A stretch of DNA of 64,000 nt from a virus. The translations under genes were made by a program, and so were the position numbers. This document shows, in pieces, positions 43,127-59,554 of the stretch. The notes beneath the pieces were generated by a model that had not been told where the DNA came from, did no database searches, and saw nothing but the letters and a program-made list of their open reading frames with translations. Position 1 is the stretch's first letter; the number at the start of each line of letters is the position of its first letter. The stretch lies in IMG/VR virus record IMGVR_UViG_3300024999_001421; one strand, written 5' to 3'.

Positions 43127-44359
43127 ATGGCTAATGGATTATTTGGTGGTGGTAACGGAACTGAGTTAACGCCATACTTAATTGAGGATTTACTCGACCT
43201 AGATGCGGTAAGGAATGATCTAACCACCTATTATGAACTTATTAACAATATTGATGCAAGTGATACGGTTAACTGGAATAGCGGCGCAGGATTCATTCCT
43301 ATAGGAAATTTTACGACTAAGTTTAGCGGTTCGTTTGACGGCAAGGGCTATAGAGTAACTGGGTTATATGTCAAGAGAAGTGTCGATAATAATGGCTTAT
43401 TTGGTTATGTTTCGTCTAGTGGAGTAGTGAAAAATTTAGGTATGGTTGACGGAAGAATAGAGGCAATTGGATCAACATTATTTAATCATGGGGCAATAGT
43501 TGGTAATAATTACGGAGCTATACAGAAGTGCTTTGCTGTAGGAGGCTATGTTAAAGCGTTAAATAGCGGTTATAACGCCGGAGGGATAGCTGGTAGCAAT
43601 AGCGGCACAATAACAGATTGTTTTGCTGGCGTAGCTGTAAATTGTCCCAATAAAGGTGCGGGATTAATAGGAGGACACTCAACAGGAACGATATCAAATT
43701 GCTACTCCATAGGAGTCGTTACTGGATTAGCGGCTAATTATTGCGGAGGATTGATTGGATATACGTATAGCGGTTCAGTAATTAATTGCTTTTGGGATAC
43801 GGAAACCTCCGGTCAAACTACTTCTGGTGGAGGAACCGGCAAAACTACAGCGCAAATGAAACAGCAGGCGACTTTTGCGAATTGGGATTTTAATAGCATA
43901 TGGTCTATAAATGAGGGTGTGTCTTACCCGGCATTACTTGTTTTCGCTACAGGAGTTATGCAAACCATAAATGCAGACATGTTACGCCAAACCGTTGTTA
44001 CCGAGTCAGTATTAATTGACATGTTACGCCAAACCGTTGTTACCGAGTCAGTATTTTCCGATACTCTTAGGAGGATAATCGAGGGTATTGAACAAACCGC
44101 AAACATAGATACGCTACGGCAGATCATTAGGAGTGAATTAGTCTCAGTTAGTACAAAACGCACTATCTTAGTTAACGAGACTATTCTTGCCGATACTCTA
44201 AGGAATGTTTACGACGATACTTATGACATTTCATTAATAGAGATAACGCTTGATTGCACGGTAGTTAAAGAGTTTGTTTCAATCTTAAGCGTTTCTAAGA
44301 GTATTTCTCTTGACGCTAATGTTGCAGATGAAATTTCTTTTAACATGGAAGTGGGTTGA
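43127..44359 (+). CDS. GLUG-motif tail/adhesin protein
   Basis: GGGNGT..PYLI, FSGSFDGKG, GLFG, repeated GG(I/L)xG, WDF..IW. Confidence 0.75.
   Translation: MANGLFGGGNGTELTPYLIEDLLDLDAVRNDLTTYYELINNIDASDTVNWNSGAGFIPIGNFTTKFSGSFDGKGYRVTGLYVKRSVDNNGLFGYVSSSGVVKNLGMVDGRIEAIGSTLFNHGAIVGNNYGAIQKCFAVGGYVKALNSGYNAGGIAGSNSGTITDCFAGVAVNCPNKGAGLIGGHSTGTISNCYSIGVVTGLAANYCGGLIGYTYSGSVINCFWDTETSGQTTSGGGTGKTTAQMKQQATFANWDFNSIWSINEGVSYPALLVFATGVMQTINADMLRQTVVTESVLIDMLRQTVVTESVFSDTLRRIIEGIEQTANIDTLRQIIRSELVSVSTKRTILVNETILADTLRNVYDDTYDISLIEITLDCTVVKEFVSILSVSKSISLDANVADEISFNMEVG
43976..44055 (+). repeat. in-frame tandem duplication (38 nt identical, 42-nt period)
   Basis: GACATGTTACGCCAAACCGTTGTTACCGAGTCAGTATT at 43976 and 44018. 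Confidence 0.9.
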
Positions 44360-46982: not shown

Positions 46983-49900
46983 GTGATTTTATTGGCCTAC
47001 GATTTATACAAAGGGCCGTATAGTAACTTTAATTCATACAGTCAAAGTAGAGATACTTCCAGGGAAGATGCCATTAGAAGGTTGCTTAGTTTTTCGAGCA
47101 ACCAACAAATAACTAACGATCCTGGCATGGCAGATGTAGATTATAGCACTACAATGCCTCCTGTACCGGAAATGAAAGTACCTATGCCACCTAAAAGAAG
47201 TCTATATGAATCTCTGGATAATAAATTTGGCGGGGTGTTGCCGGGAGGTACTATATTTAAGCCAGGAGATTACGGAATAAGCGAAAAGTTTGCGGAAAAT
47301 AACCCAACTATTAGTCGGGGATTAGCGACGATTGCTAGTCCTTTCAAGGCTATCATGGATAATCCATTTATGAATCGTTCAAGTCAAACTGCTGGGGAAA
47401 TCGTTACATTAACCGACAGGCCAGAAAAGACTTCTACCGGTAATGATAACAGGGACATGATTGCCGATTTAGTTGGTGGACTTGTTGGTTTTGGTGCTAA
47501 TCCTGAGAGCGCAGGGGCAAAACTATTTGGACTTAGCGAAAAAGCTATAGCTAAAGGATTGCAGTATATCCCCAAAGCTGAAAATTTGCCTAAAATATTG
47601 CAAACAGGTGCTAAGATTGGCGGGGCGACAGTCCCGTATGAAGCAACCGTAGCGGCACTGAACGACCGTGAATTTAAACCGGGAGAAGCGGCAGAGGCAG
47701 GCTTGTCTAATGCTGCCCTGGCTATGCTATTACATGGTGCAGGGAGTGCCTTAAGCAAACGCAATACACCGCCCAAAACTACTGATTTTAAGATGCCTGA
47801 GTATAAAGAACCGGATATGTCAGATTTTACGCCGGAGGAACTGGCTAATTTCAGGAGTAAGTCAAGTCTTGGGGAGATGATAACTCCTGAGACAGTCACC
47901 ACTAAAGAGGTAGCGGCGGCGCAGAGAACGCTTAGAAATACGCTGAATGTCGAAAAGGCCAATCAGATACTAAACGAATTCCCGGAACTTGAAAGCGAGT
48001 TTCCGCACTTTAGACTACAGCAAGGCGATACAGTTATTCTGCCAAATGGAAAAGAAGCAATAGTTAAAACAGCGGACAAGATGATTATTCAAGTTGATGT
48101 TGATGGAAAGACGGTTAGTATTGGTCGTAAAGTCGTTAAGGTTCCGGAGGTTAAGACAGAAGTTCCGGAGGTTGTGAGTGAGGCAATGCCGGAAGTGCCG
48201 GAGACTACGACTCCTGAGATTAAACAGCAACCCGTTATTAGCGATGTTCCGCGACTAAATAACAGAAGTGGTGCCGAGACTTTTGCTGACGAAAATATAC
48301 CTGATGTATCAGTCAAGCAGGAACCAATTGTCGCGCAGGAAATATTGCCGCAATTAACAGGCGAACCTGTTAAATTAACAGCAGAACAGCAACAGTCGAT
48401 AGATAAGTTAGTCAAGGATTCTGGATTCAATTCCCTCGAGGATGCTCGAAAGGCAATAACATCATATAGAAATATGGTTAATGACGGACAGGTATTTTAT
48501 CGTGGGGAAATGGTTCCAGAGGGAGCAAAAGGTAAGAAAAATAATATTATCCGTCAAAAAAGCATAGAAGATGTTCTTAATTGGACTCCTGATAATCTAA
48601 TCAAGAAGCATGAAGCAAACATAGCAAGACAAGAAAATATAAAGGAAAAGGCACAGGAAATTCTTGATACTACTGATCCGCTTAAGGATTACGGTAAACG
48701 CGACAATGCTAAAATGGAAATAGAGAATTCTAACTATTGGATTGGTAATTATCAAAAGGAGATTGATAAACTTAGGAAGCAGATAAAAAATGACGAAGAA
48801 ATAAGTAAGATAGCAGAAGAAAACAATCTCCTTTACATTACAAGTCAAAAAGAAAATGCCCTGTCTTATGCTAAGCAACTCGAAGGTAAGTCTGAAATAT
48901 TATTTGGAGAGAAGCCAGAAGGCTATAACCCAACCGTGTATGAGTTAAAAGGAAAATTTGACAATACTTTTGACTTGACTAAGTATGAGAATGGTCTAAT
49001 AAGTTTAGACGAAGTAGATAACCTATTAAACGACTTAGGAATTAAGCTAGATGATAAGCAGTTTAACGAATTTATAAATAGACTTGGTATTGATGAAATG
49101 GAACAGAATAGCGGTCAAGTATTTGGTCTATTCCGTGGTGAAAACCTTCCTATCATGCTTAATGCGCTTAAAAAAGGTAAATACGATTCGGTTCATTATG
49201 CGGAAGGATTGCAAGATAACTGGATCGTCTTAGATAGAAATAAGGTTGCTATTAAGGATGATTTAGATAAGGCAAGTAAACTTGATTCTGTAACGCAAGA
49301 CAAGATACTTAGATTTAAGTCTGGGCAGGACAAACCAGCACCTCCCGAAGTATTAAAGGACTATCCTGAGTTATCCGCAGAAGTAGGAAGTAAGTCTACA
49401 TCGGAAACTAAAGTCATGGCAGAGGATATCGGACTAAAACCGGAAAAAGCGGAAACTTATGACGAAGGGACGATTGGGGCGGCAAGGTTAACCGTACCGG
49501 AAAAGCAATCAACTCTCCCCGGTACTGACGAAAAAGTCAGGTCGTTTAATGTTTCCGTTGCTAATTCTGAAATAGCTTCTCCGGACGTTAAAATAGCCAA
49601 TATTATGGAAATGTATCCAGGAGGACTAGGGGCATATAGCCCCATAAAACTACGTGAGGTAGACGTTGAAGCACAAAATTTAATTTCCCAGAACATAGAA
49701 AAGGCTACTCGCTTTGTTCTTGAAGGAGAAGAACCTTCTGCACTTAAAACAGCAACAGGTATTCGTTTAATTGAAAAATACCAAAACGCCGGTAATTACG
49801 AGAGGGCCATAGATGTTTCGCTAGCTATGGCAGAGAGACTAACGAAAGTTGGTCAAGAAATTAGTGCCGCTAGAATTATGGGGGCACTAAAACCTGATGG

Positions 49901-51959
49901 TATTTTAGTTTTTGCACAACGACAAATAAATAAACTTAACAGCGGTAAAAAATTCGGTAAGGACATTGAATTAACTCCCGAAATGGCTAAAATACTAAAG
50001 GAACTTGCCAATAGACTTAAAAATGCAACCGATGAAAATGCCAGATTGGAGGCAGGTCAAGAATTACAGGGAGCACTGAATTCTCTAAAACCTTCTGGGA
50101 TACTTAGAAAAATAGATTCGGCGCAAACCATTTCGATGTTATTAAATCCTAAAACTTTAATTAGGAACACAGTTGGCAATGAAATGTTTTATCGCCTAGA
50201 AAGGTTAAATAAAATAGTTGCTACACCTATTGACTGGACAGTTAGTAAACTGACCGGAGCAGACCGCCAGGTAACATTTAGAACGGCTGGGCAAGGTGGT
50301 TACTGGCAGGGATTTTTCAAGGGCGCAAAAGCTGGTTGGAAAGGTGTTAACCCAGAAGGTATACAGACACAATACGACTTGGGTCGATCACCGGCATTTA
50401 ATATTAATCCCGAAAGAGCTAAAAACGCAAATACGACAACTGGGAAAGTTGTTGGTGGCACATTTGATTTTGCTGAAAAAACTATGGCTTATCTTGAAAG
50501 AACTCTAGGTGCAGCCTTGAAAGGTTTTGATTTTGCGGCATATACCAGGGCAAAAAATAACACTATTGGAGAACTAGCTACCTTAAAGGCTATAAATACT
50601 ACTGGAAAAGCTGATAAGACTATAGTACAGGGGTTTATGAAAGATATTGAGGATAATGTCCTGAATATTGCTGACCAATATGGAAAATATGTTACATTTC
50701 AAGATAACAATGTTATTTCTCGTGGACTACAAGGAGTAAAGGATGCCTTAAACATAAATCAGGATTGGGGTGTAGGGAGTGTTATTCTTAAATTCCCACG
50801 CACACCGGGGGCTTTAATAGCAAGAGGATTAGAATACTCGCCTGCTGGCTTTCTAAAGTCTGCCTACGAACTAGCAAAAGTAACAGGTATATTTAAGGGC
50901 AATCCTAGTCAAAGAGAAACAACACTTGCGTTATCAAGGGCCATAACTGGCACAGCAGGATTAACTGGATTAGGTTATTTTCTTGCCGATCAAGGAATTA
51001 TAACAGGTTCAATAGAAAAAGATAAAGACCTAAGAGATTTACAGCGACAGACAGGGCAAGGACAATATCGTATAAATCTAAGCGCATTATCTAGGTGGGT
51101 GCAAAGCGGTTTTAATAAAGATACTGCGCAACCTATTGCTGGTGATAAAATAATTAACTATGATTGGGCGCAGCCAATTGCAATGGCACTAAGCATAGGC
51201 GCAAATATCAGCAAAAACCTTAATGATGGACAAGGCAAACTAGATAATATATCCTCAACTATTGCTGGTAGTCTTGAAGGTGCTTTAAATACAGTTGCCG
51301 AGCAACCTGTTTTGCAAGGTCTTACACGGGCAGTACAAGGATATGATATGGGAGAAAATGTAACCAATACAGTTAAAAATATTCCCTCTAGTTTTGCACC
51401 AACATTAGCTAATCAAGTAAGACAGTATATAGACAATACAACTCGCTCAACATATGACCCCTCATGGGTAGAGGAATCGAAAAATAAAGTTAAAGGCAAA
51501 ATACCGGGAATTGCTGGCAACTTGCCTGTCGCATATGATACTTTCGGAAAACCGAAGGAAATATATCAAGATGGAGGTAATGATGCTTTCAATGTATTCT
51601 TTAATCCAGCATTTACATCGAAATACAAAGTTCCAGAAGAAGCGAAGTTGGCCATAGAAACATTTAGAAATACCGGAGAAACAAAGCAACTACCTAGAGT
51701 TGCATCTAAGTCATTTACTATTAGTGGGCAAAAAATAGAACTAACTGCCAAAGAATATAGCGATATGCAAAGGATTGTTGGAGAAAGAACACTAAAAGAA
51801 TTTTCCAGAATACCGCAAAATGCTAGTGATGACAAAAAGATACGCAGGATGATCGATGCTTTAGGTAAAGCCGGACTAGAGGGCAGAAAATTTGTATTAC
51901 AACAAAGGGGTATTGGCTTTAGGAATAAGGGCAATGGGATAGTGCTTAGACAACAATAA
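46983..51959 (+). CDS. large internal virion/ejection polyvalent protein with ART-like domain
   Basis: 1658 aa; FYRG...LYITS...ALSYA...VYEL...FDL...KYDSV; helical C-terminal half (MLLNPKT.IRN, FPRTP). Confidence 0.7.
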   Translation: MILLAYDLYKGPYSNFNSYSQSRDTSREDAIRRLLSFSSNQQITNDPGMADVDYSTTMPPVPEMKVPMPPKRSLYESLDNKFGGVLPGGTIFKPGDYGISEKFAENNPTISRGLATIASPFKAIMDNPFMNRSSQTAGEIVTLTDRPEKTSTGNDNRDMIADLVGGLVGFGANPESAGAKLFGLSEKAIAKGLQYIPKAENLPKILQTGAKIGGATVPYEATVAALNDREFKPGEAAEAGLSNAALAMLLHGAGSALSKRNTPPKTTDFKMPEYKEPDMSDFTPEELANFRSKSSLGEMITPETVTTKEVAAAQRTLRNTLNVEKANQILNEFPELESEFPHFRLQQGDTVILPNGKEAIVKTADKMIIQVDVDGKTVSIGRKVVKVPEVKTEVPEVVSEAMPEVPETTTPEIKQQPVISDVPRLNNRSGAETFADENIPDVSVKQEPIVAQEILPQLTGEPVKLTAEQQQSIDKLVKDSGFNSLEDARKAITSYRNMVNDGQVFYRGEMVPEGAKGKKNNIIRQKSIEDVLNWTPDNLIKKHEANIARQENIKEKAQEILDTTDPLKDYGKRDNAKMEIENSNYWIGNYQKEIDKLRKQIKNDEEISKIAEENNLLYITSQKENALSYAKQLEGKSEILFGEKPEGYNPTVYELKGKFDNTFDLTKYENGLISLDEVDNLLNDLGIKLDDKQFNEFINRLGIDEMEQNSGQVFGLFRGENLPIMLNALKKGKYDSVHYAEGLQDNWIVLDRNKVAIKDDLDKASKLDSVTQDKILRFKSGQDKPAPPEVLKDYPELSAEVGSKSTSETKVMAEDIGLKPEKAETYDEGTIGAARLTVPEKQSTLPGTDEKVRSFNVSVANSEIASPDVKIANIMEMYPGGLGAYSPIKLREVDVEAQNLISQNIEKATRFVLEGEEPSALKTATGIRLIEKYQNAGNYERAIDVSLAMAERLTKVGQEISAARIMGALKPDGILVFAQRQINKLNSGKKFGKDIELTPEMAKILKELANRLKNATDENARLEAGQELQGALNSLKPSGILRKIDSAQTISMLLNPKTLIRNTVGNEMFYRLERLNKIVATPIDWTVSKLTGADRQVTFRTAGQGGYWQGFFKGAKAGWKGVNPEGIQTQYDLGRSPAFNINPERAKNANTTTGKVVGGTFDFAEKTMAYLERTLGAALKGFDFAAYTRAKNNTIGELATLKAINTTGKADKTIVQGFMKDIEDNVLNIADQYGKYVTFQDNNVISRGLQGVKDALNINQDWGVGSVILKFPRTPGALIARGLEYSPAGFLKSAYELAKVTGIFKGNPSQRETTLALSRAITGTAGLTGLGYFLADQGIITGSIEKDKDLRDLQRQTGQGQYRINLSALSRWVQSGFNKDTAQPIAGDKIINYDWAQPIAMALSIGANISKNLNDGQGKLDNISSTIAGSLEGALNTVAEQPVLQGLTRAVQGYDMGENVTNTVKNIPSSFAPTLANQVRQYIDNTTRSTYDPSWVEESKNKVKGKIPGIAGNLPVAYDTFGKPKEIYQDGGNDAFNVFFNPAFTSKYKVPEEAKLAIETFRNTGETKQLPRVASKSFTISGQKIELTAKEYSDMQRIVGERTLKEFSRIPQNASDDKKIRRMIDALGKAGLEGRKFVLQQRGIGFRNKGNGIVLRQQ

Positions 51960-52346: not shown

Positions 52347-52550
52347 TTATTTACCGTCGACATATTCAAATAGATCTCCCGGTTGACATCTAAGTGTAGC
52401 ACAAAGACGATCTATAACTTCCAATGAAACATATTCGTTGGTATTTAGTTTTGCCATAGTGCCTCCAGATATTTTGGCTTGTTTCATTAAATCTTGTTTT
52501 TTTATATTTTTATCAATCAACATTTTTTGGAATAGTTTATAGCTAATCAA
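52347..52550 (-). CDS. Cro/C1-type HTH (HTH_26) regulator
   Basis: ISYKLF..L....IKKQDL...VSLEVIDRLC..L.CQPGDLFEYV. Confidence 0.88.
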   Translation of the reverse strand: MISYKLFQKMLIDKNIKKQDLMKQAKISGGTMAKLNTNEYVSLEVIDRLCATLRCQPGDLFEYVDGK

Positions 52551-52719
52551 ATTAATTTACCTCCTGTTTACTATATCTTAAATATATATATTATTATATC
52601 AAAAAATATTCGACAAATCAAAGATAATTATATTGACTTATATTTATGATATGTTATAATAATATTTAAGAAGTTGTAAATAATTACATACCAATAAGGT
52701 GTCTTAGGAGGAATACGGC

Positions 52720-53352
52720 ATGGGCAAAAACATTCTAACGGCAACAATCGAAATAAAAGGAATTAGACCTCTGTTGTGGCATGTATTTGGTCCTGATTCT
52801 TTGCCACTTGAAAAACAAGAGAGGACAGGAGTTGCCGGACACGATCCGGAGGAATGGCGCAAAACATATGTAGCAACCAAGAGTGGACAGTTATATTTAC
52901 CTGGTTCTTATTTCTTCGGAACATACATTGCAGGCGCTAAGTTCATTAAGAAGGGCAAAGGCTCAATTCAAAGTTTGGTATCAGCAACATTGCAGGTACT
53001 TGATGATAAGGTATTGGTTAATCGTAATTTACCGGAAGATATTCACGAAAAACCGCATAAGTATTATAATGCTGACGAAGAATTGGTTTATATTGACGTT
53101 CGCTCAGTACGTAATCCGTCAACCAAGTCTAGAAACATTCGTTATCGCGTTGCTACTTGCCCCGGATGGGAGTGTAAATTTTCAATAATGTTCGATAAAA
53201 CGGTTGTTAGTCGCCAAGAGATGCACTCTGCTATTATTGATGCAGGTAAATTGTCCGGCATTGGCGATGGTCGTTCTGTTGGATATGGAAGATTTGATGT
53301 ATTATCTTTTGAAATACAGGAGGAAGATAATGCCGAGGAAAAGACCTCCTAA
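52720..53352 (+). CDS. solitary Cas7/Csm3-like RAMP protein
   Basis: IEIKGIRPLL (beta1), LYLPGSYF, C-terminal Gly-rich loop GIGDGRSVGYGRF. Confidence 0.8.
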   Translation: MGKNILTATIEIKGIRPLLWHVFGPDSLPLEKQERTGVAGHDPEEWRKTYVATKSGQLYLPGSYFFGTYIAGAKFIKKGKGSIQSLVSATLQVLDDKVLVNRNLPEDIHEKPHKYYNADEELVYIDVRSVRNPSTKSRNIRYRVATCPGWECKFSIMFDKTVVSRQEMHSAIIDAGKLSGIGDGRSVGYGRFDVLSFEIQEEDNAEEKTS

Positions 53353-53620
53353 AGAAATATGGCAAAAACTAAGAACAATAGTCTGGGAACGAGATAAGGG
53401 TAAATGTAAGCACTGTGGCAAACTAGTTGACTTAGATAAATGTCACATAGATCATATTCGTTCTGGTAAGTTAGGAACAAATAAGTTAAGCAATCTTAGA
53501 ACTCTATGTCGTTGCTGTCATGTTTTGCGTGAGGATGGGCGACATAGAGGGATGATTAGCAAGGCACTTAAAGATGGTATTATTCCTCCGAATTGGCGTG
53601 AGTTGGTTTGGGGTGATTAA
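53330..53620 (+). CDS. small HNH endonuclease (96 aa) overlapping RAMP stop
   Basis: W..LR..VWERDKGKCKHCG...HIDHI...GTNKLSNLRTLCRCCH; AGGAGG RBS inside RAMP gene. Confidence 0.9.
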   Translation: MPRKRPPKEIWQKLRTIVWERDKGKCKHCGKLVDLDKCHIDHIRSGKLGTNKLSNLRTLCRCCHVLREDGRHRGMISKALKDGIIPPNWRELVWGD

Positions 53621-53639
53621 TATACTGTATAATTAATCA

Positions 53640-53734
53640 GGTCGGGAACGAAGCGGAATGGTGAGTTGCGGTCCGGAGTGGTACGGAGAGCTGAGGCATG
53701 GCACGTTAAGGTGCGCAATGAAATGGTAAGGATT
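53640..53734 (+). repeat. pentameric G(G)HNN array 1 (19 units), candidate guide RNA
   Basis: G at every 5th base 19/19, GG 13/19; TATAAT at 53628-33 immediately upstream. Confidence 0.85.
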
Positions 53735-53738
53735 CGAA

Positions 53739-53796
53739 ACTACCCTTCGGGGTAGTCCTACAGGTTAGCCTCCTGTAGTTGACAAGATGGGCTAAC
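53739..53796 (+). ncRNA. structured linker: UUCG hairpin + H-type pseudoknot
   Basis: ACTACCC-TTCG-GGGTAGT; CTACAGG-ttagcct-CCTGTAG with loop complementary to GGGCTAA at 53789-95. Confidence 0.75.
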
Positions 53797-53798
53797 AT

Positions 53799-53883
53799 GG
53801 AAAGGTCTGGACTGGAACGGAACGTAGGGGCATGGAAAGTTCCGGAGTGGTTTGGTTCGGATTGGCTAGTTAAGGCAAGGGTA
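53799..53883 (+). repeat. pentameric G(G)HNN array 2 (17 units), candidate guide RNA
   Basis: G at every 5th base 17/17, GG 14/17. Confidence 0.85.
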
Positions 53884-53885
53884 AT

Positions 53886-53925
53886 AAGAGAAATAACCAC
53901 TTCATATGAAGTGGTTATTTCTCTT
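53886..53925. terminator. perfect 40-bp palindrome, likely bidirectional terminator
   Basis: AAGAGAAATAACCACTTCAT|ATGAAGTGGTTATTTCTCTT between convergent units. Confidence 0.75.
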
Positions 53926-54124
53926 CCGGCACATATTCAAATAAATCTCCTGGCTGACATTTGAGGACTTGACACAACTTGCTGATCTGCTCTATCTCTA
54001 TTCTCCTAGAAGTACCGTGCCATAACTGACTTACTGTATTTGGCCTAATTCCTGTCATAATGGATAATTGTTTCATTGTTATTTTTCTTTTACCCATCAT
54101 ATCTGATACTTTTATTATCATCAT
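53915..54124 (-). CDS. Cro/C1-type HTH (HTH_26) regulator
   Basis: QLSIMTGIRPNTVS...LC.VL.CQPGDLFEYV. Confidence 0.88.
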   Translation of the reverse strand: MMIIKVSDMMGKRKITMKQLSIMTGIRPNTVSQLWHGTSRRIEIEQISKLCQVLKCQPGDLFEYVPEEK

Positions 54125-57821: not shown

Positions 57822-57897
57822 TGGCTGTGAAGGTAGGTCTCGAACCTACGACAAGTTGATTAACAGTCAACCACTCTACCAACTGAGTTACTCCACA
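57822..57897 (-). tRNA. tRNA-Asn (GUU)
   Basis: TGTGGAG..ACTC AGTTGGTA GAGT..GTTGA CT GTT AA TCAAC..GTAGG TTCGAGA CCTAC CTTCACA G CCA cloverleaf with encoded CCA. Confidence 0.95.
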
Positions 57898-58511: not shown

Positions 58512-58684
58512 CAAAAAAAGGAACGCCGCAGCGTCCGTACAAAAACTTAACCTTATGGATTACACTACTAGATTCAACAACAATTACTCGCTACACGGAG
58601 GAATTCACCTACCTTTATATTATATTTGTCGGAGTGACCGCCATGTGCGCTTGTCACGCGAGACAGAGGCGTAGCGGTTCAATG
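58512..58684 (-). ncRNA. candidate ~170-nt sRNA
   Basis: TTGCAA-17-TATAAT promoter, no credible ORF, GGACGC/GCGTTCC-T7 terminator. Confidence 0.6.
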
Positions 58685-58801
58685 AGATTATTATATCACT
58701 CGGTTAGTTATGTTGCAACCGTTTACGGTAGAAGTGTGCTGTATAAAGTTTATGGGCAAATAAAAAACTCCCTCGGTTAGAGAGAGTTTTGTGTGTTTAA
58801 G

Positions 58802-59287
58802 TTAGTTAACTATTTCCCAATCATCAGCAAGAAGATCGGTTATACTTGGAATCCATGTATTGTATTTGCCGTGTACGTTATACAGCACAAGGCATTTATT
58901 GTCAATTGGAACATTATCGGCAGTATATAGATTGAGTATATTAATGTGCATATTTTTCCCATTCCAGCCGACACGGGCAATTGATAAACCTTTTTCGAGT
59001 GCCTTCCACGCCTGCCCGAAGTTAAGTCCTGTCTTTTGGGTACCGTCCCTTGTCTCAATACTTAAATCATCCAATGCCTGCAAGACAGTATTAACGGTTA
59101 CGCGGTCATAGTCCTTTATGTTTTCAGCTAAATCAGCGTAAGGAATCATGTCGGTGTGGCATTTGGTACAAGACGAACAACCGTCCCTATGATATGAAGG
59201 TGCATGAAAACCCTGTGCTGCTTTCTCCATCATCCAAGCATCATGTACTTTCTCGGATAACTTTTCAATCAAATCTTTGGTATCCAT
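58802..59287 (-). CDS. RyR-domain + DUF2829/Tad2-like fusion
   Basis: VHDAWM.EK..QG...IPYADL....KDYDR; LNFGQA...L..G..IAR.GWNGK.M...WIPS.TDLLADDW. Confidence 0.8.
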   Translation of the reverse strand: MDTKDLIEKLSEKVHDAWMMEKAAQGFHAPSYHRDGCSSCTKCHTDMIPYADLAENIKDYDRVTVNTVLQALDDLSIETRDGTQKTGLNFGQAWKALEKGLSIARVGWNGKNMHINILNLYTADNVPIDNKCLVLYNVHGKYNTWIPSITDLLADDWEIVN

Positions 59288-59554
59288 TATTTTATCCCTC
59301 CATAGTCCTCTATTAGTCATTCAATTATACCACTCGGTAAATAAAAATTCAACCGTTTACGGTATATTCATACCGTTTGCAGGAGAAACAATGTCCGACA
59401 TAGAATAATAATAGTACATTTTACCGGATTATCTTATTGGCATAAAATAATCCCAAGTATATCTATCAAAGGTCGCCTTCCACGGTCGGCCTATTTTTTT
59501 TGAGAAACTTTAAGCGGTTATCGTTTCTTAACGTCAATAACTAAGAAACACACA

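What the first reader, a model, noticed from the sequence alone, without database searches (positions are those of the whole stretch)
52720..53925. Candidate non-CRISPR RNA-guided system: solitary Cas7-like RAMP + HNH nuclease + pentameric G(G)HNN guide arrays
Seen: a 210-aa gene with RAMP hallmarks (IKGIRPLL, LYLPGS, GIGDGRSVGYGRF). It overlaps a 96-aa HNH gene, which is followed by two non-coding tracts with a G at every fifth base (36/36 units, 27 of them GG) and two freely variable bases per unit. A perfect palindrome closes the unit and a divergent HTH gene precedes it. No cas1/2/5/6/8/10 or CRISPR repeat-spacer array is in the window. Established: Cas7-family RAMPs polymerise along an RNA with fixed nucleotide periodicity. 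Inference: each subunit grips one conserved GGH triplet and displays the NN, so the concatenated NN dinucleotides form a discontinuous guide and the HNH is the effector, for example against competing phages. From memory this resembles recently reported viral RAMP systems with GGY-NN repeat RNAs (VIPR-type), which I cannot verify here. The coupled HNH, frequent GGA units and pseudoknot linker would be distinctive.
Basis: partly seen in the sequence, partly recalled or inferred. Interest (0 to 1): 0.97.

Follow-up and report, generated by a model that had tools for sequence, protein, structure and literature searches.

The report
Phage VIPR guide-RNA system with HNH
This phage carries a VIPR system, a CRISPR-like RNA-guided DNA-targeting device first described in 2026 preprints, and one of its two guide RNAs is aimed at a gene of closely related rival phages; it is real and well supported but belongs to an already published class.

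Summary
There are 36 pentamer units with G at every fifth base, 27 of them GG, and they occur nowhere else in the 64 kb. A 210-aa RAMP gene overlaps a 96-aa HNH gene, and a perfect hairpin closes the unit.

The RAMP is a Vipr. A profile of its family matches the solved SUSP1 Vipr protein (E 2e-9). Four of that protein's RNA-contact residues (two shown essential there) are kept. Its AlphaFold model matches Csm3/Cas7.

In 40 of 42 related viral contigs the HNH gene sits next to vipr. Across the clade's arrays (60 arrays, 994 units) the consensus is GGY-NN with near-uniform NN.

The "pseudoknot linker" has the anatomy of a type II hammerhead ribozyme, with a variant U3:A8 core.

Under the published 1-nt-skip rule, guide 2 matches 26/26 bases, in frame, in the LPD38 polyvalent-protein gene of a sibling phage (L082). 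That phage is syntenic with this one but lacks VIPR. This phage has swapped out the targeted module, and no self-target exists.

HNH cleavage of the target is inferred, not shown. No target was found for guide 1.

Verdict: a new member of a known kind. This scan has already met VIPR loci on other DNA, one of them with an HNH.

The parts
52633..52660 (+). Candidate sigma-70 promoter of the vipr-vap operon (TTGACT-16-TATAAT with a TG extension, 11/12)
   Evidence: Consensus scan. Pattern match only; not evidence of function.
52720..53352 (+). vipr: 210-aa minimal RAMP (single RRM, thumb, C-terminal G-loop GIGDGRSVGYGRF)
   Evidence: At least 1293 homologues. AF2 model with alignment has pLDDT 86. 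Foldseek top hits are Csm3/Cas7, E 1e-9. Family profile matches SUSP1 Vipr (PDB 36pp_D) at E 2.1e-9 over residues 9-192.
53330..53620 (+). vap: 96-aa HNH nuclease, overlapping vipr by 23 nt. It has a Zn-Cys/DH...N...H core and a conserved C-terminal tail (RGMI..AL.DGIIPPNWRELVW).
   Evidence: PF01844 E 1.8e-6. A homologue is adjacent to vipr in 40/42 related viral loci. D41, H42, N51, C60 and H64 are invariant in 35 sequences. The tail is the predicted Vipr-docking surface.
53626..53633 (+). Extended -10-like TGTATAAT, 6 nt upstream of unit 1; possible separate start for the vrRNA transcript
   Evidence: Read from the sequence. The consensus scan did not call it because no -35 is present. Untested.
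53640..53734 (+). vrRNA1 repeat tract: 19 GG(H)NN units
   Evidence: The orthologous tract in a phage whose Vipr is 96% identical (L004/L025) has an entirely different NN string. No target was found.
53735..53795 (+). Type II hammerhead-like linker. C GAAA 53735-53739; stem III 53739-53756 (UUCG loop); predicted cleavage after GUC, i.e. after C53757; stem I 53758-53778; core UUGACAA 53779-53785 (U3:A8 in place of C3:G8); pseudoknot between loop I 53765-53771 and 53789-53795.
   Evidence: It aligns with the linkers of L001 and L004. Those linkers score 36.3 and 35.8 bits against Rfam RF02276, whose gathering score is 37. Anatomy scan; pseudoknot at the same offset in all 5 copies. Rfam does not detect the window's own copy.
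53799..53883 (+). vrRNA2 repeat tract: 17 units. Units 1-13 (53799-53863) are the guide and decode to KLLTTGINPVFSL.
   Evidence: 26/26 guide bases (29/34 overall) match the LPD38 gene of L082 at 12497, and 28/34 match in L083, in frame with the skipped base at the wobble position.
53886..53925 (+). Perfect 18-bp hairpin: 3' tail of vrRNA2 and a likely two-way terminator shared with the convergent HTH_26 gene
   Evidence: Similar hairpins lie at the same place in L001 and L004. There is no T-run, so terminator function is inferred.
52347..52550 (-). Divergent Cro/C1-type HTH_26 gene (context; not a conserved VIPR component)
   Evidence: PF13443 E 1e-20. Found next to vipr only in the closest relatives.
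53915..54124 (-). Convergent HTH_26 gene (phage regulatory region; context)
   Evidence: PF13443 E 2e-21. 65-69% identical to the HTH_26 gene at the same place in L085, which lacks VIPR.
46983..51959 (+). 1658-aa large virion-module protein (context). Its first ~380 aa are homologous to the LPD38 protein of sibling phage L082; the rest is replaced by unrelated sequence, so the vrRNA2 target is absent.
   Evidence: tblastx gives 86% identity for 47106-48125 against L082 10226-11245, and nothing beyond. No Pfam hit. Best in-window match of vrRNA2 is 21/34.

Best explanation
The locus is a phage-borne VIPR (Viral Interference Programmable Repeat) system. The promoter at 52633 drives vipr and the translationally coupled HNH vap. 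The downstream region gives a transcript with two vrRNAs. Vipr protomers are expected to polymerise one per pentamer. Each would hold the GG(H) bases and present the NN pair, as solved for SUSP1 Vipr. The presented dinucleotides read double-stranded DNA with one skipped base per two read. The two vrRNAs are probably separated by self-cleavage of a type II hammerhead after C53757, which leaves stem III as the 3' tail of vrRNA1. The terminal hairpin is the tail of vrRNA2. Guide 2 is aimed at the LPD38 large polyvalent-protein gene of sibling phages. Those phages have the same genome layout but lack VIPR. This phage has replaced that gene module and so is not a target itself. The HNH protein most likely docks on Vipr through its conserved C-terminal tail and cuts the bound DNA, so that rival genomes are destroyed rather than only silenced. 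Shown here: homology, fold, array conservation, the target match and the absence of a self-target. Inferred: transcription, filament assembly, ribozyme activity and HNH cleavage.
For: Homology and fold:
- The family profile hits SUSP1 Vipr (36pp_D) at E 2.1e-9.
- SUSP1 H17, R138, D177 and R179 align with window H21, R143, D183 and R185. The roles of these residues come from bioRxiv 10.64898/2026.04.26.720927.
- The fold is Csm3/Cas7-like.

Locus conservation:
- HNH is adjacent to vipr in 40/42 viral loci, and arrays are present in most.
- Clade-wide unit composition is G1 96%, G2 83%, Y3 83%, with N4 and N5 near uniform.
- Phages with 96%-identical Vipr carry unrelated NN strings.

Targeting rule in an unbiased set (window plus L005-L047):
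- Only the 1-nt skip gives significant hits: 24/26 in a portal gene, and 18/20 in another phage's vipr.
- Skips 0, 2 and 3 and shuffled guides give none.

Target of guide 2:
- Window vrRNA2 matches L082 at 26/26 over units 1-13, in frame.
- Sister phage L025's vrRNA2 hits the same gene at another site (30/38 in L083).
- The guide has the sense of the coding strand, so it cannot pair with the mRNA. This points to DNA as the target.
- L082 is 70-93% identical to the window in its structural, Ant and FtsK genes, but it has no arrays.
- The window holds no self-target.

HNH:
- The catalytic and zinc-binding residues are invariant.
- The Vipr-HNH complex model scores ipSAE 0.66 against a best control of 0.00. 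That mark was reached by 58 of 80 solved complexes and 2 of 110 mismatched pairs. Runs agree in at least 97% of contacts and the partner's pLDDT is at least 86. My own alignments were used, so the calibration counts hold only roughly.
Against: - There are no expression, binding or cleavage data.
- No target was found for vrRNA1.
- The vrRNA2 match stops at unit 13 of 17.
- The target contigs were reached through a 9-unit seed and then by protein homology, so the path is not a blind search.
- The target contigs come from other metagenomes, so a shared host is not shown.
- Position 3 is A in 16/36 units. The SUSP1 structure excludes purines there, and SUSP1 W178 is Gly here, so RNA recognition may differ in detail.
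- The window's hammerhead has three core changes and only a 2-bp stem II, and Rfam does not detect it.
- The published work shows silencing, not cleavage.
Confidence: 0.85

Rival explanations
1. It is a VIPR system that works only by binding and transcriptional silencing, as shown for SUSP1. The HNH gene would then be an independent phage HNH (a homing or packaging-type endonuclease) that merely sits there.
For: All published functional data on VIPR are for repression. Small HNH genes are common in phage genomes, as shown by the many PHROG HNH families hit.
Against: The HNH gene is adjacent to vipr in 40/42 loci at 44-96% Vipr identity, and it stays there even when the gene order changes (L003/L013: vipr, arrays, HNH). 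The two genes overlap by 23 nt. The conserved non-catalytic C-terminal tail is the predicted docking surface. The paper itself lists HNH-domain Vaps.
Confidence: 0.1
2. The linker between the arrays is a decayed, no longer self-cleaving hammerhead, or simply a structured spacer. The two vrRNAs would then be separated by host RNases or stay joined.
For: Rfam does not detect the window's copy. The core reads UUGACAA instead of CUGAUGA and stem II has only 2 bp. The MFE fold of the linker is not unusual (z -1.45).
Against: The C3U and G8A changes fall on the two core positions that covary in natural hammerheads, where U3-A8 replaces C3-G8 (PMC4209133). From general knowledge, position 7 is variable. 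Stems I and III, the GUC site and the loop I pseudoknot are all intact and lie at the same offsets as in the four canonical relatives.
Confidence: 0.35
3. The period-5 tracts are not guides but some other G-rich repeat, such as protein-binding or structural DNA, and the match to LPD38 is chance.
For: The seed search of 9 units returns about as many hits as chance predicts (2 in IMG/VR and 16 in the metagenomes).
Against: The match extends to 26/26 in homologues that were not selected by nucleotide sequence. An independent guide from the sister phage hits the same gene in frame. Only the 1-nt skip rule gives significant hits in the unbiased set. The protein is homologous to a Vipr solved in complex with such an RNA.
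Confidence: 0.02

Closest known systems
VIPR systems, reference member Escherichia phage SUSP1 (type II): bioRxiv 10.64898/2026.04.26.720920, 10.64898/2026.04.26.720927, 10.64898/2026.10.15.759431
   Same: Small single-RRM RAMP homologous to SUSP1 Vipr (E 2e-9) with H17, R138, D177 and R179 equivalents. GGY-NN pentamer arrays with hypervariable NN and a structured 3' tail. One adjacent accessory gene. Phage-borne. One-nt-skip matches to coding sequences of rival mobile elements with the skip at the wobble base. No self-target.
   Different: The accessory protein is an HNH nuclease, not the DNA-binding Vap1. Arrays have 17-19 units against 9-16. Position 3 is often A in this sub-clade (16/36). 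SUSP1 W178 is Gly here. The tail is a hammerhead or terminator hairpin, not the SUSP1 pseudoknot. The target is a sibling phage rather than a satellite.
Nuclease-encoding VIPR types (III-V) and ribozyme-interspersed arrays (types I and V) of the same preprint
   Same: HNH-domain Vap (legend of fig. S21). Hammerhead ribozymes between vrRNAs (legend of fig. S19). Guides matching viral sequences.
   Different: The preprint describes types III and V as enriched in host defence islands. This copy sits inside a complete-looking phage genome between the virion module and the early regulators. The exact type could not be assigned because the figures and tables are not held. Type III is my guess, from the HNH and from the many single-array relatives.
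CRISPR-Cas type III backbone subunit Csm3 (Cas7 family)
   Same: Best structural matches (Foldseek E 1e-9, TM about 0.5): RRM core, thumb and G-rich loop. Polymerises along a guide RNA with fixed periodicity (established for Csm3).
   Different: No CRISPR array. No Cas10, Cas5, Cas6 or Cas1-2 seen in the window. Five-nt rather than six-nt periodicity. Sequence identity is only 12-18%.
Type II hammerhead ribozyme (Rfam RF02276)
   Same: GAAA, stem III, GUC site, stem I, a CUGAUGA-type core, an open stem II, and a pseudoknot between loop I and the 3' extension. The relatives' linkers score 36 bits.
   Different: All copies fall just below the gathering score of 37. The window's copy has a U3:A8 core pair, C7 and a 2-bp stem II, and Rfam does not detect it.

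Membership tests
VIPR | Vipr protein homologous to characterised Vipr | tested here: met
   A profile of 65 family members against PDB sequences hits SUSP1 Vipr 36pp_D at E 2.1e-9, residues 9-192 against 6-190.
VIPR | Minimal RAMP fold (single RRM, thumb, G-loop) | tested here: met
   AF2 model has pLDDT 86.4. Foldseek top hits are all Csm3/Cas7 at E 1e-9 to 1e-8.
VIPR | Residues that hold G1, G2 and Y3 in SUSP1 (H17, R138, D177, W178, R179) | tested here: inconclusive
   The H, R, D and R equivalents are conserved or invariant (window H21, R143, D183, R185). W178 aligns with Gly184. The Y3-pocket residues are not alignable with confidence.
VIPR | vrRNA gene: tandem GGY-NN pentamers with hypervariable NN | tested here: met
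   Window has 36/36 G1 and 27/36 GG. Across the clade's 994 units: G 96%, G 83%, Y 83%, NN near uniform. NN strings are unrelated between phages with 96%-identical Vipr. The window deviates: A at position 3 in 16/36 units.
VIPR | Structured invariant 3' tail after the repeat tract | tested here: met
   vrRNA1 is followed by the hammerhead stem III hairpin. vrRNA2 is followed by an 18-bp hairpin. Both are positionally conserved in L001 and L004.
VIPR | Adjacent vap accessory gene with a predicted DNA-interacting function | tested here: met
   HNH (PF01844) overlaps vipr. It is conserved next to vipr in 40/42 loci.
VIPR | Guides match mobile-element DNA by the 1-nt skip rule, with the skip at the wobble base and no self-target | tested here: met
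   vrRNA2 matches 26/26 (29/34, 85%) in L082 LPD38, in frame. Only skip 1 is significant in the unbiased set. Best self match is 22/36 and 21/34. vrRNA1 has no target found.
VIPR | vrRNAs expressed and bound by Vipr; DNA binding is programmable | not testable with these tools
   Needs small-RNA sequencing, pull-down and reporter assays.
VIPR | Assignment to one of the seven published types | not testable with these tools
   The types are defined in Fig. 5A, fig. S16 and data S4, which are not held. The legends link HNH Vaps and ribozyme arrays to types III and I/V.
CRISPR-Cas (class 1) | CRISPR repeat-spacer array and further cas genes | tested here: not met
   No repeat-spacer array in the 64 kb. 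The neighbours are phage genes. A full cas HMM scan of every ORF was not run.
Hammerhead ribozyme type II | Catalytic core, stems I and III, UH cleavage site, loop I pseudoknot; Rfam gathering score | tested here: inconclusive
   The relatives score 36.3 and 35.8 bits against a gathering score of 37. The window's copy has the full anatomy with a U3:A8 core but gets no Rfam hit. Self-cleavage is untested.

The most novel reading that the evidence does not exclude
This clade is a phage-borne, nuclease-armed VIPR, and at least 1293 homologues are on record. The Vipr filament recruits one HNH per protomer, or a few, through the HNH's conserved C-terminal tail. It then cuts rival-phage DNA that it recognises by the gapped xNN code. 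That would be RNA-guided DNA cleavage by a 210-aa plus 96-aa pair, with relaxed GG(H) repeat recognition. The natural guide-target pair found here (vrRNA2 against the LPD38 module, which this phage has swapped out) would also be a worked example of how sibling phages tell self from rival.
Probability: 0.5. Interest if true: 0.6.

Novelty: new member of a known kind. Interest (0 to 1): 0.45.

Why it matters
VIPR is a very recent discovery, and only its silencing type II has been studied at the bench. This locus offers a compact nuclease-type example with three useful pieces. It has a concrete natural target, a 39-nt site in the LPD38 gene of a sibling phage. It has a predicted Vipr-HNH docking surface. 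It has a self-processing two-guide transcript. Together these make the open question of whether nuclease VIPRs cut DNA under the gapped code directly testable with a small construct. The locus also shows an ecological logic: a phage aims at a gene module that its closest relatives keep and that it has itself replaced. As a class, however, it is already described.

Tried and rejected
- Single-sequence AF2 gave an unusable model (pLDDT 39).
- tblastn of Vipr against the INPHARED phages gave no match.
- No whole genome is held for this window.
- Exact seed scans for vrRNA1 (units 1-9 and 8-16) in IMG/VR gave 2 and 11 hits. None extends beyond the seed (21-26/38).
- The seed for vrRNA2 units 8-16 gave 3 hits with no extension.
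- The pattern for vrRNA2 units 2-12 gave nothing in IMG/VR or the JGI metagenomes.
- The 9-unit vrRNA2 seed in the metagenomes gave 16 hits, mostly unrelated genes with chance-level extension. Because of this I first discounted the LPD38 lead. I reinstated it only after the sister phage's guide and the family homologues converged on the same gene.
- I first thought the window's 1658-aa protein was an LPD38 homologue along its whole length. BLASTP and tblastx show that only the N-terminal ~380 aa are shared.
- A MAFFT alignment of four hammerheads (A3) was too poor structurally to build a covariance model, so none was built.
- The two HTH_26 genes are not conserved VIPR partners.

Full report
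OBSERVATION

The 210-aa ORF at 52720-53352 is followed by a 96-aa HNH ORF at 53330-53620, and the two overlap by 23 nt.

Two non-coding tracts follow, at 53640-53734 and 53799-53883. They have 19 and 17 pentamer units. All 36 units begin with G and 27 begin with GG. These are the only places in the 64 kb with twelve successive period-5 G, and no such run exists for C.

A perfect 18-bp hairpin at 53886-53925 closes the unit. HTH_26 genes lie on the minus strand on either side. Tandem Repeats Finder finds no CRISPR-like array in the window.

The window is a phage genome. It encodes a large terminase, a portal, a major head protein, the anti-repressor Ant, an endolysin and an FtsK-like protein.

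THE PROTEIN

Pfam gives nothing significant. PHROGs gives only an unnamed family. The family is large: at least 1293 proteins match at E <= 0.001, most 55-65% identical and almost all unannotated.

With a 65-sequence alignment, AlphaFold2 gives a confident model (pLDDT 86.4). Its best matches among solved structures are all Csm3/Cas7 backbone subunits of type III and type VII CRISPR complexes (E about 1e-9).

A profile of the family, searched against PDB sequences, has one significant hit: 'SUSP1 Vipr protein' (36pp_D), at E 2.1e-9 over almost its full length. In that alignment four SUSP1 residues are matched by conserved residues here: H17, R138, D177 and R179 align with window H21, R143, D183 and R185. 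The cryo-EM preprint shows that these four residues hold the two guanines and the pyrimidine. W178, which stacks on G2 in SUSP1, is Gly here.

THE LITERATURE

VIPR systems were described in 2026 preprints. A VIPR system comprises:
- a small Vipr RAMP;
- one accessory gene (vap);
- vrRNAs made of 9-16 GGY-NN repeats plus a structured 3' tail.

One Vipr protomer binds each repeat. The NN pairs read double-stranded DNA with one base skipped per two read. Natural targets are rival mobile elements, usually in frame with the skip at the wobble base.

Seven types are listed. Types III-V carry nucleases or helicases. HNH-domain Vaps and hammerhead-interspersed arrays are mentioned in the figure legends. 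The figures and tables that define the types are not held, so I cannot assign a type. Type III is my guess.

RELATIVES

In 42 IMG/VR loci encoding a relative (44-96% identity), a homologue of the HNH protein lies next to vipr in 40. The other two loci are short or truncated. Most loci carry one to several GGNNN tracts on the same strand.

The gene order can change: in L003/L013 it is vipr, three arrays, then HNH. The partnership is therefore functional and not positional.

Over 60 non-redundant arrays (994 units), position 1 is G in 96% and position 2 is G in 83%. Position 3 is C or T in 83% and A in 13%. Positions 4 and 5 are close to uniform. This is the published vrRNA consensus.

The window and its nearest relatives are unusual in having A at position 3, in 16 of 36 units here. 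The phage whose Vipr is 96% identical (L004/L025) has entirely different NN strings, as expected of guides.

The HNH alignment keeps the zinc cysteines and the DH...N...H core invariant. It also keeps a non-catalytic C-terminal tail.

A complex prediction places that tail (residues 73-90) against Vipr residues 76-83 and 164-177. The ipSAE is 0.66 against a best control of 0.00. That mark was reached by 58 of 80 solved complexes and 2 of 110 mismatched pairs. Runs agree in at least 97% of contacts and the partner's pLDDT is at least 86. My own alignments were used, so these counts hold only roughly. This supports binding but does not show it.

THE LINKER

The 64 nt between the arrays align with the linkers of L001 and L004. 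Those linkers score 36.3 and 35.8 bits against Rfam's type II hammerhead, just under the gathering score of 37.

The window's copy has every architectural element:
- GAAA;
- a 7-8 bp stem III with a UUCG loop;
- a GUC site, with predicted cleavage after C53757;
- a 7-bp stem I;
- a core heptamer;
- a 7-bp pseudoknot between loop I (53765-53771) and 53789-53795.

The same pseudoknot, with different sequences, lies at the same offset in all five copies examined.

The core reads UUGACAA instead of CUGAUGA. The C3U and G8A changes are the two partners of a known covarying core pair, because natural U3-A8 hammerheads exist (PMC4209133). From general knowledge, position 7 is variable.

Stem II has only 2 bp, and Rfam does not detect this copy. 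Activity is therefore plausible but unproven.

TARGETS

Neither guide matches the window itself. The best self matches are 22/36 and 21/34, which is background level.

In an unbiased set (the window plus L005-L047), only the 1-nt skip rule gives significant matches. One is 24/26 (28/30 when extended) in a portal gene of another VIPR phage. The other is 18/20 in the G-loop codons of another phage's vipr. Skips of 0, 2 or 3 and shuffled guides give none.

For the window's vrRNA2, the route to the target was as follows.
1. A 9-unit seed found two IMG/VR contigs. Both hits lie in a ~1050-aa LPD38 polyvalent-protein gene, in frame.
2. On its own this was not above chance, as the metagenome control showed.
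3. The sister phage's vrRNA2 independently matches the same gene at another conserved site.
4. Family members collected by protein homology include some that encode exactly the peptide the guide spells.
5. At the DNA level, units 1-13 match 26/26 in L082 (29/34 overall, above the preprint's 80% threshold) and in L083 (28/34).

The last four units resemble the conserved array end seen in relatives and are probably not guide. The guide has the sense of the coding strand, so it cannot pair with the mRNA. This fits DNA targeting.

THE RIVAL PHAGE

L082 is a sibling of this phage. Its structural genes, Ant, FtsK and others are 70-93% identical and in the same order. It has no vipr, no HNH and no arrays.

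Its LPD38 protein and the window's 1658-aa protein share their first ~380 residues (86% identity). After that they are unrelated. This phage therefore lacks the module that its guide attacks.

No target was found for vrRNA1.

VERDICT

The locus is a member of the published VIPR class, with an HNH accessory nuclease and a ribozyme-type two-guide transcript. It is aimed at least in part at sibling phages. Target cleavage by HNH is the most likely mode of action but is inferred. The finding is real and well supported but not new in kind. This scan has already met VIPR loci on other DNA, including one with an HNH.

Noticed in passing
window 46983-51959 vs L082 10001-14065: The large virion-module protein is a mosaic. 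Its first ~380 aa are 86% identical to the LPD38 polyvalent protein of sibling phage L082. The remaining ~1270 aa have no detectable similarity and no Pfam domain. The swap removes both sites targeted by this phage's guide and by its sister phage's guide.
   Followed up: partly
L023 3112-3161 vs L009 3014-3049: A vrRNA of one VIPR phage matches 18/20 guide bases, in frame, in the G-loop codons (AGLGDGRAIGFG) of another phage's vipr gene. This looks like an anti-VIPR guide of the kind the preprints report for type II.
   Followed up: partly
L019 3116-3190 vs L029 1073-1138: A vrRNA matches 28/30 guide bases, in frame, in the Phage_portal gene (Pfam E 6e-84) of another VIPR-carrying phage.
   Followed up: partly
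L003/L013 (L003 3680-3735 and 3830-3875): In this more distant relative the arrays are separated by a different conserved structured spacer (TTCTATTCGCTAGCC...GAATAGAA), which is not a hammerhead by Rfam. The HNH gene follows the arrays instead of preceding them.
   Followed up: no
window 58600-59420; L082 16888-17094 and 19393-19884: The sibling phage carries genes with Acb2/Tad1-hairpin and Tad2-like Pfam hits (anti-defence sponges), and the window has tblastx-similar sequence at 58616-58892. Both phages also encode a 411-aa FtsK/SpoIIIE-like protein; in L082 the gene after it has a faint Replic_Relax Pfam hit.
   Followed up: no
window 57822-57897 (-): A phage-encoded tRNA-Asn (GTT).
   Followed up: no
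window 43976-44055: A perfect 42-bp tandem duplication (1.9 copies) inside the 410-aa ORF at 43127-44359.
   Followed up: no
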